A stretch of DNA of 61,112 bases, counting the filler, from Hausera hauseri (taxonomy: Eukaryota): the NCBI GenBank assembly GCA_046269625.1. It is 10 parts of 10 records of this genome, joined end to end, with 100 filler letters (N's around TTAATTAATTAA, not from the genome) between each part and the next. Parts side by side here need not be neighbours in the genome. Positions count along the whole stretch, not along the records: positions 32,570 to 37,235 come from JBJURY010483798.1; 9 more parts are not named here. One strand, 5' to 3'. The translations under genes were made by a program, and so were the position numbers. Below are positions 32,570 to 36,837 of this stretch, piece by piece; position 1 is the stretch's first letter; each line of letters starts with the position of its first letter. The notes under the pieces are model-generated. The model did no database searches. It was not told the origin of the DNA and was given only the letters and a program-made list of their open reading frames with translations.

Positions 32570-33789
32570 GAACAGAATTAAGTTTATGAATAACGAAAAA
32601 ACAAAATATAGTAAAAGCTTGTATCTTGAAATTTCCTGAGTGTAAGGTTGAATTTAAGTATGCCAATCAGATCATGGGTTTTATAAAAGGTCCTGATAAC
32701 GAATTGAAAGATACTTACAAAATGCTAGACACAGCAATACTGGCGAAACCTGTAATAGCTAACCAGCTAAAGGAATGGTCCTAATTAATATCGAGACTAA
32801 GTCAAGTAGCGAAAAACCGTTTAAAAGAATCTCCAGAAAGTGAACCACTAGTGATGCAACAACTGGAAGAAATTTCACGAAACTTGGACACTGAAAGCAG
32901 AAGCAGATATTCGAACGCATTTCAATGAACTGAAACAGTTAGAATTCATGAGTAAAACGGGGGATATGTCAGTCCCGAAGGAAATATAAAATGATTGAAG
33001 AAATGGACTTGAAATTGAAACAAAATATGATATGTGACCTCTATCCAAGAATTACAAGGCTTTGTCTAATAGGAAGCCAATACTTGACGGAAAAGCCCAT
33101 GAAATTACAACGCAAGAGCTGAAAATATTAGAGATCTGTTCAGGCTACAAGGACTCTATTTCAGATGTGTTAAAAGTTTTACAAAATCCAGCTAATTGGA
33201 TGCCTGGGTCGGATCAAAAATAATACGCCGAATTAATGGAAATAATCGAAGACCATCGACTCACCGTTGAAGAAACAAGCTTCATAAAGAAACTAATTAA
33301 AGAGATTGATCTAGACTCTAAAATTTTAGAAGAAATAAGAAAAATTGTGTTACTATTTATCGAAATGGCTGAAACTGGCCTCGAGAAAACGAGACAACTA
33401 CAGAGTCGAATACATCAAGCTCGGAAAATACAAATTCATACTGAACAAAGGAATGCAGCAATAGATGAATTGAGCAAAGAATTGGAAGTATACAGAAATA
33501 AATATACTATTATGGAATCAGAAATAGCCAACAAATCAATTCGTACAAAGATGGCAAAGAGATGTAGCAGCCAAACTAACCAATTACCAAGAAAAAGGAA
33601 TGATCCAGGCAGACAAACTATGTCAGTTGCTAACATTATTACATCAAGTTTCCGGAGATGGGAGTTTCTTCCGGACAACACAAAAGAATAAATGCAACAA
33701 AAATTGCGCGAAGTGAGAGAAACGGTATGGAACGTAAACGCAATCCGACCAACGGATATGCCAATAATTTATTACGGAAACAAATCGAA

Positions 33790-35820
33790 TTGGCTAAATA
33801 ACTTCCTAACTGTGATGATGTTAATAAAACAATTTGGAGCTGTTACGATATATGACTGCGACAAATTCAAACTTGGTCAAAGATATTCACTGATGGATTT
33901 AAAAACGTGCGAAGACGCAAGATTGCATAGATTAGAAATAAAAGAGAAAAGTTACATATTGTATCAACAACGTGAGTTTGTCTCATTAGACAGAAAAGAA
34001 TGCATGTTGCGGCTATTCTTTTGTATTTTCCATTGTTGATTACTACACGGACATTCATTGATAATAAAGCCAACAACTTCACCAATTCCAATGAAGTTAG
34101 AAAGCCAATACTGAACGCAGGTTAGAGAAACAGGTATATTACGATGGGATAGCATAGAACTTGAAATACAGCAAATAAAAATAATCAGAGCTTTCGAAGT
34201 AGCTGCAGGAAAACTAGATATGCATTCTGGACATAGTAATAGCAAAGAATATAATACCGCAACGGAAAAGAAGCAAAAATAATAGTTGTGGATTTTTACG
34301 AAACCGAGATACGAACACAAAAAGTGATGTTTCATAGCGTTACTAAGCTCTACACTGAAAATCAAAAGTGCAATAGACAAGACGCCACTTNNNNNNNNNN
34401 CATTCAAGGTAGCAGCGGAAAAACTAGATATGCATACTGGACATTGTAATGGCGACGAATAGGATACTAGAAAAGGAAAAGAAGCAAACATAGTACTTTT
34501 GGACTTCTATAAAACCGAGATACGAATACAAAAATTGGTGTTTCACAGCGTTACTAAGCTCTACACTGAAAGCCAAAAGTGACATATACAAGACGGCACT
34601 TATGCTCTTAGTAGTTTAGTAATAATTTGGGAACCTCCAATGAAAACTGATTGTAATTTTATCAAAATTAAAGAAATAAAGTTTAATGAAACGTAGGGAA
34701 AATACTATGTAAACAGTATGGATACTAATTCGAAAACGCGAGAAGATGTAATAGAATAACTTACACCAAACATATTAGTTTCCGATAATCATGGATTGAA
34801 AAAGGGCGTACTTACACTATGTGATGTAGTAAAAACGCCACTAACCATGAAGCATTTTTTGTAGCAAAAACGGAGATAAATGCCAAAATATTTAAGCTTG
34901 AGAATCAAGATATAAGGATGGAAGATTATTTGAAAAATAGAAACGACTATTTTTATTATAAAGAACAAGCTGAAATAACTGAACTGTATCATAAAATGTT
35001 AATGAACGATTGTAAATTAGATTTAGAAATTATGAGAACTAAATTAGCTTTAATATATGCCAATCCCGAACTAGCATCACCAATAACTCCAATGAAAGGA
35101 AGTGTTTTTGGTCGAATGACCTGAGAAATTTTACTGACTTACGAATGTGAAAAGAGAAGTTCTTATAAATGTTGAGGAAAATAGATGCATACAAGAACCC
35201 CCGTATTATATCAAGATATTCCGAGATTAGTGACGACAATTATTAGAATTTTACTAGCAAAAGCAACCTAATCAACGATTTTGAAATATTGCAAAACGAG
35301 TTTAGGAGAACCAATGTTCACAAGTAGCAAAATTGATTGGCTAAGTTTACCAAATGTAGATGTAATAACTCCACCAGTAAAGCTAACAGGAACTAATTTA
35401 GTAAAAGAGATAACGATGACAAATTTCAACACATTACTGCTAAAGGCATTGACAGACCAAAATAGGTTGAAGTATTTAGACAATTTCTTGCTTTTTCACG
35501 TCAGTGCACGCATGAATTAAACCGAGCTATGCATATGGTATTAGAAGATACTCGTTATCAAGCGAAATGGGAATCGTTACTTGGTGATAACCATTACCAA
35601 AATTGACCATAGAAATCTTGTACAAAATTTGTGGAATATATTTGATTTTCGTACAAGCTGTATCTGGTTTTTCGAAATCTATTTCTTAATTCAACTAGTA
35701 AAAGCAGCAATTCAATCATTTATAAATAGATATCAGATAATCACATTAACAGGATTGCTATGTAAAATTTTAACGGCTATTATAACACTATTCGGTAAAT
35801 TCTTAAAAGCTTACTAAAAA
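33790..35820 (+). pseudogene. Chuvirus-like (class III, gB-related) envelope glycoprotein, disrupted
   Basis: Ordered motifs VTIYDC..YSL.DL..C..LYQ..C....FHC..HGHS, G.C.G, IIWEPP..DCNF, and YL..RNDY..ELYH.....CKL......LAL...NPE, followed by C-terminal hydrophobic segments. Confidence 0.7.
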
Positions 35821-36139
35821 AGTAGATGGAAAGTGGACATATTGGTTACCATTATCGTAAACGTAAAAGAAGGCACACTTAATTACAAAAGGAAGTTCAT
35901 CAATATGAAAACGCGAAGAAGCGATACTGATGATTATGAACCTAAGGGAGGAGACGCCATCTCCAGGATAAATGGACATGAAACTACTCCGTTATAAAAT
36001 CACCATTACCAATATTACCGCCAACTACGCCGACATATGAAGATTGTGAGAAATAATGTATGAATTCATATCTGATGGATATCCATAGAAAACCGTTCAA
36101 CTTTCAAGATCTTTACGAAGGAACAAAACATTACGGAGT

Positions 36140-36837
36140 ATTTTGCAAAGTGCACAAAACGAAAGGAACATCCGCTCTGCATCGATGTCCAGCATTTGAC
36201 GATCACGGAATACTTTATTCGCCTAAAATACCCAGAACGAGTGAAATACGATTAACGTTTCAAGAGACCATAAAATGCGGACTTTTAGAAACCAAAAATA
36301 TCAGCCAATAACTAGAAGCCAAGAAACACAAACCATCAATTGCGTGAATAATGAACTGTGTCCGAATGGATAATTAAGACAGTTGATCAGCCAATTATAG
36401 CCACAGAAGTTAGAATGAACGGATATAATGTATGAATAATTCAACATCCCAAAATAGCACCGATTTACTACGGTACAGTAACCGAAGGTAGATCCTTCGC
36501 TAAAATTCAAATAGAAGATTGGGAAGTTTACGCAACAATAGATATGGGATCCGAAATAACACTGATAGAATATAATTCAATACTACAAAAAAGGAAATAT
36601 CGATGGAATCCGAAAAATCACATAATGGGACAATCATTTCACCACGAACTTTCTATAATGGAACAGTTAACGGATGATGTAGTATTAGGATGCCATTTGT
36701 TAAGGTATTTACCAAATATAGCAATACATTTTCATGCTGGAAAACTAATAACACTTGGTTCAATAAAAGGAGTGAAAACTATGAAAAATAGAAAAATACC
36801 AAGGTTTACAAAGATCATTGGTAATTGTTTGATATAA
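36140..36837 (+). pseudogene. Zn-knuckle remnant plus retropepsin-like aspartic protease
   Basis: CKVHKTKG..HRC (CX2HX4HX4C after small indels), VYATIDMGSEITLI and DVVLGCHLL. Confidence 0.6.

What the first reader, a model, noticed from the sequence alone, without database searches (positions are those of the whole stretch)
32570..36837. Endogenous element with chuvirus-like fusion glycoprotein followed by Zn-knuckle and aspartic protease
Seen: the co-oriented order is coiled-coil ORF (33236-33691, in frame with 33692 across one stop), signal-like segment, Cys-patterned glycoprotein, hydrophobic segments, CX2HX4HX4C remnant, then D(M)GS protease. Known: chuvirus-type class III glycoproteins have been captured by LTR retrotransposons in arthropods, usually downstream of integrase. 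Inference: an enveloped, retrovirus-like element with an unusual env-knuckle-protease polyprotein, possibly self-processing, in an invertebrate associated with fish.
Basis: partly seen in the sequence, partly recalled or inferred. Interest (0 to 1): 0.72.

Follow-up and report, generated by a model that had tools for sequence, protein, structure and literature searches.

The report
Dead copy of gag-env-pol retrotransposon
This is a decayed, internally deleted piece of a multi-copy jumping gene that carries a herpes-gB-like fusion protein between its capsid and enzyme parts, a layout already in print; the suspected zinc knuckle is a mutation artefact, but other copies add a second, predicted fibronectin-like membrane protein that the papers read here do not mention.

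Summary
The glycoprotein and protease are real; the knuckle and the coiled-coil/Env adjacency are not. The stretch is one broken copy of an old repeat family (20 copies, 66-89% identical). Env matches Pfam Monjiviricetes_fusion (E 4.5e-31 in a better copy), and a profile of it and its relatives hits only herpesvirus gB in PDB. Other copies give the layout LTR-Gag-CCHC-long linker-Env-protease-RT-RNase H-integrase, about 17 kb, with Ty3-type RT. Env therefore sits between Gag and Pol, likely in one frame. That order is published (planarian Burro; GAG-ENV-POL errantiviruses of nematodes, bryozoans, flatworms), and this scan found it before in other genomes. The two 'knuckle' cysteines occur in 1 and 2 of 21 other copies. 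A 1.25-kb deletion brings the coiled coil next to Env, and a scaffold gap splits Env. Beyond the window, the polyprotein runs past integrase into a second signal, a predicted tandem-FN3 ectodomain and a transmembrane helix, followed by a separate ORF ending in a RING finger. I did not find these in the papers read; an earlier scan note reports a similar FN3 protein elsewhere.

The parts
32570..33775 (+). Part of the long linker between Gag and Env (coiled-coil-like, no Pfam family); cut by the contig start; broken by stops and frameshifts
   Evidence: 75-81% DNA identity to copies L019, L022, L024, L027, L029; Gag and CCHC lie upstream in other copies
33224..33691 (+).
   Evidence: only weak coiled-coil-type Pfam matches, E 0.026 or worse
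33770..33780 (+). Junction of a ~1.25-kb internal deletion that joins the linker to the start of Env
   Evidence: blastn against L022 (2526 to 3774), L024, L027, L029; junction context
33803..33859 (+). Internal signal-like hydrophobic segment and likely mature start of Env
   Evidence: same position and pattern in intact relatives P0002, P0004, P0013
33840..35673 (+). Class III (chuvirus/gB-type) Env ectodomain, broken by stops and frameshifts
   Evidence: Pfam PF24664; tblastn of P0001 and P0004, E 5e-29 and 7e-30; gB hits of the Env profile
34193..34601 (+). ~200-bp duplication around a 10-N scaffold gap (34391-34400); possibly the join of two different copies
   Evidence: halves 83% identical to each other and 68-82% to other copies
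35674..35793 (+). Env membrane anchor region: two hydrophobic segments
35794..36435 (+). Env tail / linker to the protease; holds the false knuckle at 36144-36188
36436..36798 (+). Aspartic protease (DMGS at 36541-36552; DTGS in other copies), with a ~75-bp deletion near 36587; the copy is cut off at about 36798
36799..37235 (.). Flanking DNA, not part of the element
   Evidence: no match; 36801-37235 matches none of the 112 other fetched loci

Best explanation
The stretch is a dead, internally deleted and truncated copy of a ~17-kb Ty3/gypsy LTR element whose class III fusion protein lies between Gag and Pol, likely inside one ~4,100-residue polyprotein that would thread the membrane and be cut by signal peptidase and by the element's own protease. 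SHOWN: the domain order in other copies (LTR, PBS, Gag, one CCHC, long linker, signal, Env ectodomain, anchor, tail, PR, spacer, RT, RNase H, integrase, second signal, second ectodomain, transmembrane helix, stop; then a separate ORF ending in a RING finger, PPT, LTR), and the same Env-before-Pol fusion in intact proteins from other genomes. INFERRED: one reading frame from Gag to the second membrane protein; Gag, linker, tail and Pol stay cytosolic while two internal signals send Env and the FN3-like domains into the lumen; signal peptidase frees their N-termini; the protease frees Gag and the enzymes from their membrane stubs; particles bud with trimeric Env and enter other cells of the host. 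The family is now inactive, as far as the sampled copies show.
For: Multi-copy, collinear family: 73 matches among the 40 best candidates. Contig C72216 (L068+L042) runs without N from the pre-Env linker to RING, and C176638 (L037/L040) from the Env signal to the 3' LTR. Env: PF24664 E 4.5e-31, 107.9 bits against a cut-off of 27; 39 of 39 PDB sequences hit by the 62-sequence Env profile are herpesvirus gB, best E 1.1e-4. Pol: RVP, RVT_1, RT_RNaseH, Integrase_H2C2, rve in that order; best PDB hits of RT include the Ty3-G polyprotein, E 3.8e-40. Intact relatives: 10 of 25 scanned hits carry protease and/or RT behind Env in one protein, as does P0151; the family's Env nests among them (support 0.99). 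Frame: tail-to-PR distance is 459 nt in 9 of 21 copies; one copy each is fully open across anchor-to-tail, tail-to-PR and PR-to-RT; integrase C-terminus to second signal is open in 8 of 15; a stop follows the second transmembrane tail in 12 of 14 copies. LTRs are TG...CA, mostly 680-770 bp, with PPT and PBS.
Against: No sampled copy is intact, so the single frame is pieced from distances and overlapping ORFs; the Gag-to-Env part rests on few copies (n=3 for one interval, none open). A programmed frameshift or splicing is not excluded. Topology, cleavage, particle formation and cell entry are untested. The gB match covers only ~75 residues and comes from a profile dominated by relatives; the family's own Env alone had no PDB hit and was not folded. 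The tree's neighbours were picked as best hits, so nesting is partly by construction. The window copy itself holds no RT or integrase.
Confidence: 0.88

Rival explanations
1. One reading: an Env-knuckle-protease polyprotein, with a nucleocapsid-like zinc finger behind Env.
For: The window does read Cys and His at 36144-36188, directly upstream of the protease.
Against: The spacing is not a knuckle; the Cys are found in 1 and 2 of 21 other copies, mostly Arg, as CpG decay would give. A true CCHC lies upstream in Gag.
Confidence: 0.02
2. A chuvirus glycoprotein gene inserted passively (endogenous viral element) into or beside an ordinary gypsy element and was carried along without use.
For: Chuvirus-type glycoproteins often lie near fragmentary gypsy copies in arthropods (PMC10084718, passages).
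Against: Env sits at the same place in every copy that spans it, has its own internal signal and anchor, and is fused in frame to Pol in intact proteins only 25-35% identical to it.
Confidence: 0.04
3. Same parts, but Gag, Env and Pol are expressed as separate ORFs or through a frameshift or splice, not as one polyprotein.
For: Long intervals have few in-frame copies; published GAG-ENV-POL elements are described as ORF arrangements (PMC13524379).
Against: ORFs cross CCHC-to-linker (L053, L059, L079), linker-to-Env (L068), anchor-to-tail (L076) and tail-to-PR (L068); no stop position is shared by most in-frame copies before the one that ends the second membrane protein.
Confidence: 0.1

Closest known systems
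GAG-ENV-POL HSV/gB-type errantiviruses of Nematoda, Bryozoa and Platyhelminthes (Chary and Hayashi, eLife, PMC13524379; nematode elements of Sacco et al. 2022, seen only as cited there)
   Same: Ty3/gypsy Pol; gB/chuvirus-type Env between Gag and Pol; LTRs and PBS. By eye, the planarian Env rows of its supplementary file 3 share the pattern of P0001, P0002, P0016 and of this family's Env N-half.
   Different: This family is decayed (no pair above 89%). It adds a second signal + predicted FN3 ectodomain + transmembrane helix after integrase and a RING-ending ORF2; 'fibronectin', 'FN3', 'accessory' and 'RING' do not occur in that paper's main text.
Burro / GYPSM1 giant gypsy elements of planarians (Arkhipova and Yushenova, PMC6431247, passages)
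   Same: Gag with CCHC, long coiled-coil-like region, Env related to mononegavirus fusion glycoproteins in frame between Gag and Pol, a spacer between PR and RT, one polyprotein of over 4,000 aa, accessory ORFs.
   Different: About 17 kb with ~0.7-kb LTRs instead of over 30 kb; one CCHC instead of two or three; MATH, BIR, ankyrin, BCL2, ubiquitin-like and dUTPase-like domains were not detected here (a ubiquitin-like stretch is suggested by eye only); the passages read mention no FN3 membrane protein.
Anakin (BEL/Pao with chuvirus glycoprotein; Dezordi et al., PMC7642597, search listing only; described in PMC12440569 part 1 and PMC13524379 section 14)
   Same: Same glycoprotein family captured by an LTR retrotransposon.

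Membership tests
Ty3/gypsy (Metaviridae) | Pol order PR-RT-RNase H-integrase | tested here: met
   Pfam on copies L021, L068, L077; anchor order
Ty3/gypsy (Metaviridae) | RT closest to Ty3/gypsy RTs | tested here: met
   Best PDB hits 4ol8 (E 5e-41; recalled as Ty3 RT) and Ty3-G Gag-Pol (E 3.8e-40), ahead of a caulimovirus-type enzyme (name recalled) and retroviral RTs; no BEL/Pao reference was at hand and no RT tree was built
Ty3/gypsy (Metaviridae) | TG...CA LTRs, PBS, PPT | tested here: met
   the priming tRNA was not identified
Ty3/gypsy (Metaviridae) | 4-6 bp target-site duplication | tested here: inconclusive
   4-bp duplication at 1 of 2 solo LTRs (L109 yes, L087 no)
GAG-ENV-POL gB-type errantivirus | gB/chuvirus-type class III Env with signal and anchor | tested here: met
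GAG-ENV-POL gB-type errantivirus | Order Gag, Env, Pol within one LTR element | tested here: met
   L024 (CCHC to PR), L026 (LTR end, Gag, Env), L068+L042 and L037 (Env to RING/LTR)
GAG-ENV-POL gB-type errantivirus | Placement with the published elements in Pol and Env trees; cysteine-bridge class | not tested
   Published sequences were seen only as supplement rows and compared by eye
Burro / GYPSM1 | Env in frame between Gag and Pol in one polyprotein | tested here: inconclusive
   Supported for Env-PR-RT-IN; weaker for Gag-to-Env
Burro / GYPSM1 | Giant size (over 30 kb) | tested here: not met
   Summed anchor distances and LTRs give about 17 kb
Burro / GYPSM1 | MATH, BIR, ankyrin, BCL2, ubiquitin-like, dUTPase-like domains | tested here: inconclusive
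   None detected by Pfam or PDB sequence search on decayed pieces; the PR-RT spacer is homologous to that of P0002, P0004, P0008, P0151
Troyka | CG...CG termini and 3-bp duplication (PMC12440569) | tested here: not met
   Termini are TG...CA
Retroviral-type zinc knuckle at 36144-36188 | CX2CX4HX4C spacing, conserved among copies | tested here: not met

The most novel reading that the evidence does not exclude
These elements built a two-part entry machine from one Gag-Env-Pol-Env2 polyprotein that crosses the membrane four times: a class III fusogen upstream of Pol and an FN3-type attachment protein downstream of integrase, like gB with a receptor-binding partner, while the RING-ending ORF2 acts as a ubiquitin-ligase counter-defence. 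The second membrane protein would be a conserved feature of the lineage: 4 of 4 intact relatives that extend past integrase have a signal-like segment there and 3 of 4 an FN3-like motif.
Probability: 0.22. Interest if true: 0.7.

Novelty: new variant of a known kind. Interest (0 to 1): 0.35.

Why it matters
The headline layout, a class III Env between Gag and Pol, is already described, so this copy adds one more host lineage and a dead family. What would matter is the part outside the window. If the FN3-like membrane protein behind integrase is a receptor-binding partner of the fusogen, it would explain how gB-type Env, which in herpesviruses needs partner proteins (established knowledge), is targeted in retrotransposons. 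A single membrane-threading polyprotein also implies equal amounts of Gag, Env and Pol and membrane-tethered enzymes, a processing route that the papers read here do not test.

Tried and rejected
Word-index protein searches with the 416-aa Env piece (longer and near lengths) and with the ORF2 alignment found nothing; the full HMMER scan found 227 Env relatives. The Env piece alone had no PDB hit. The fold of the ORF2 N-terminal domain failed (pLDDT 31.6), with no significant Pfam or PDB hit; its nature stays open. The Atlas gave no answer for that domain or for a relative's post-integrase domain. The family's FN3-like ectodomain shows no sequence similarity to the post-integrase domains of P0002, P0004, P0013, P0151 (phmmer, hmmsearch, hhalign), so homology rests on position, hydrophobic pattern and a recalled motif. 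Ubiquitin-like and BCL2-like readings of the pre-Env linker and a dUTPase-like reading of the PR-RT spacer were not supported by Pfam or PDB searches. An exact pattern for the priming tRNA found no gene. No RNA holder listed for 34401-36800. Troyka was considered and rejected on its termini. Sacco et al. 2022 and Grohme et al. 2018 are not held. A read-through stop at 33689 was rejected.

Full report
OBSERVATION. The finding covers one stretch of the pack, 32570-37235, which is the whole of contig G000:C483798. All three forward frames are full of stops. The glycoprotein is real: one window frame read with X at stops hits Pfam PF24664 Monjiviricetes_fusion at E 8.6e-08, and intact relatives align to 33785-34069 and 34801-35811.

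WHAT IS ARTEFACT. A search of the own genome gave 73 matches among the 40 best-scored candidates, at 69-88% identity apart from the self hit, so each feature can be checked against other copies. (a) Knuckle: no CX2HX4HX4C exists; the nearest motif is C-X2-H-X8-H-X-C, and its two Cys occur in 1 and 2 of 21 other copies, Arg being commonest. CpG decay is the likely cause (inference). (b) Coiled coil next to Env: copies L022, L024, L027 and L029 hold about 1.25 kb more at 33775. The last ~50 codons of the 33224-33691 ORF are off the frame that L022 keeps, so the stop is not a read-through site. (c) A 10-N gap at 34391-34400 is flanked by a ~200-bp duplication at 83% identity, against 68-82% to other copies; the contig may join two copies, or carry an old tandem duplication. 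(d) The copy lacks ~75 bp near 36587 and ends at about 36798; the rest matches none of the 112 other loci.

THE FAMILY. Other contigs give the layout. LTRs are TG...CA, mostly 680-770 bp, preceded by a purine tract and followed by a primer-binding site; one of two solo LTRs has a 4-bp target duplication. Gag is homologous to the N-termini of relatives P0119 and P0009 (E 5.5e-16, 6e-08 in a 12-protein search) and has one CCHC knuckle (Pfam E 4.2e-07). About 1,300 codons of linker follow, then Env, a ~250-codon tail, protease (RVP E 5.9e-08), a spacer, RT (E 1.4e-25), RNase H and integrase. The RT's best PDB hits are Ty3-type. Two gap-free contigs carry Env through integrase to the 3' end (L068+L042; L037/L040). 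Summed distances give about 4,100 codons for the main frame and about 17 kb for the element. Over Env, 20 copies are 66-89% identical, median 78% (188 pairs); no intact copy was seen among those fetched, which are only the best-scoring candidates.

ENV IS CLASS III. A 416-aa open piece from copy L023 scores 107.9 bits on PF24664 (E 4.5e-31). A full HMMER scan found 227 relatives. A profile of this piece with 61 relatives hits 39 PDB sequences, all herpesvirus gB, best E 1.1e-4 over ~75 residues. Of 25 hits scanned, 10 carry protease and/or RT behind Env in the same protein, and 3 show a Gag or CCHC mark in front; P0151 (4,844 aa) has the same order. In a FastTree tree of 58 sequences (45 of 93 stand-alone glycoproteins kept, by id order) the family's Env falls in a 16-member group, support 0.99, that holds all 12 polyprotein-embedded relatives; these were picked as best hits, so this is partly by construction.

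ONE FRAME? Inferred, not shown. The tail-to-protease distance is 459 nt in 9 of 21 copies; one copy each is open across anchor-to-tail (of 22), tail-to-protease (of 21) and protease-to-RT (of 10) (two contigs are represented twice among that call's loci). ORFs also cross CCHC-to-linker and linker-to-Env. The Gag-side intervals have few copies and many frameshifts.

BEYOND INTEGRASE. The frame runs on from integrase into a second signal-like segment (open in 8 of 15 copies), an ectodomain of ~400 residues, a strong transmembrane helix and a short tail, ending at a stop found in 12 of 14 copies. A model of the first 218 ectodomain residues (pLDDT 67, pTM 0.50) matches tandem fibronectin type III domains: Foldseek best E 2e-05; VIA-align Z 8.2, rmsd 2.6 over 87 residues for the first domain. 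That Z is at the level the tool calls common, but nearly all listed rows in both searches are FN3 proteins. All 4 intact relatives that extend past integrase have a signal-like segment there, 3 a second hydrophobic segment above threshold and 3 a recalled FN3-like motif, yet none aligns with this family's domain. A separate ORF of roughly 780 codons follows, with an N-terminal domain of unknown fold and a C-terminal RING finger (Pfam E 1.4e-07).

MECHANISM. Most likely the element transposed as a gypsy element and made enveloped particles from one polyprotein. Gag and linker stay in the cytosol; the first internal signal sends Env into the lumen and signal peptidase frees it; the anchor stops transfer, so tail and Pol are cytosolic (one of the two hydrophobic segments must then lie along the membrane rather than cross it); the second signal and helix do the same for the FN3 protein. 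The protease would release Gag and the enzymes. All of this is inference from the layout and from established signal-peptide and retroviral-protease biology. The FN3 protein could be an attachment partner of the fusogen or a captured accessory; I put the first at about 0.22.

WHAT IS KNOWN. Arkhipova and Yushenova (PMC6431247, passages) describe planarian Burro/GYPSM1 with Env, related to mononegavirus fusion glycoproteins, in frame between gag and pol. Chary and Hayashi (PMC13524379; abstract, passages, part 1 of sections 5 and 6, section 14, and Platyhelminthes/Bryozoa rows of supplementary files 2 and 3) report GAG-ENV-POL elements with gB-type Env in Nematoda, Bryozoa and Platyhelminthes, citing Sacco et al. 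2022 (not held). I also saw part 1 of PMC12440569, passages of PMC10084718 and PMC11410931, and the listing of PMC7642597. The FN3 protein and RING ORF were not found in the main text of PMC13524379, in the Burro passages, or by a library search (3 papers listed, judged unrelated from title and abstract start). Figures, Grohme et al. 2018, Sacco et al. 2022 and Repbase entries were not visible and may mention them. Earlier notes of this scan report the same order in two other genomes and an FN3-like protein after integrase in a third; one gave me the Burro lead. They are unchecked AI notes. Other notes call this genome a probable flatworm; I did not test that.

VERDICT. A real but dead and rearranged copy of a known kind of element. 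The second membrane protein and ORF2 make the family a variant worth a comparative look. Interest 0.35.

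Noticed in passing
L055, L058, L074, L088, L091, L096, L103, L108: In 8 of 38 LTR ends listed, one LTR is preceded by the purine tract and followed by the primer-binding site: head-to-tail tandem units sharing an LTR, or an assembly effect.
   Followed up: partly
L022:1-1440 (G000:C626552): A 479-codon open frame with 26 FYKR repeats, like a neuropeptide precursor, joins the element's linker directly at a short shared sequence; no significant Pfam match. Could be a template switch onto a host mRNA, a recombination or a misassembly; earlier notes report host-mRNA capture by gypsy elements in this genome.
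   Followed up: partly
L077:4755-5777, L050:3112-4221, L078:4237-5136: ORF2 of the family: a ~340-aa domain with no family, fold or homologue found, a low-complexity spacer, a second unknown domain and a RING finger.
   Followed up: partly
P0001, P0003, P0006, P0012, P0151: Intact relatives carry two to four or more aspartic-protease-like domains behind Env, and P0151 and P0002 have one even after integrase; this family has a single one.
   Followed up: no
P0004: A Gag-end/Env/Pol polyprotein of this lineage is deposited as a hypothetical protein of a Flavobacteriaceae metagenome bin, probably animal DNA in a bacterial bin.
   Followed up: no
window 37336-43600: A separate stretch at 52.7% GC (others that were printed 33-41%) with long open, overlapping frames for Gag-like, RT/RNase H and tyrosine-recombinase-like proteins, resembling a DIRS element by eye; far less decayed than its neighbours; contamination or transfer from another organism is possible.
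   Followed up: no
L023:6175-7585: A ~1.4-kb foreign insertion just upstream of the Env signal in one copy.
   Followed up: no
window 7141-9082, 11772-12712, 18109-18618, 44542-47464, 50076-51301, 54501-55964: Other stretches of the pack hold further decayed gypsy-type pol regions (tblastn).
   Followed up: no
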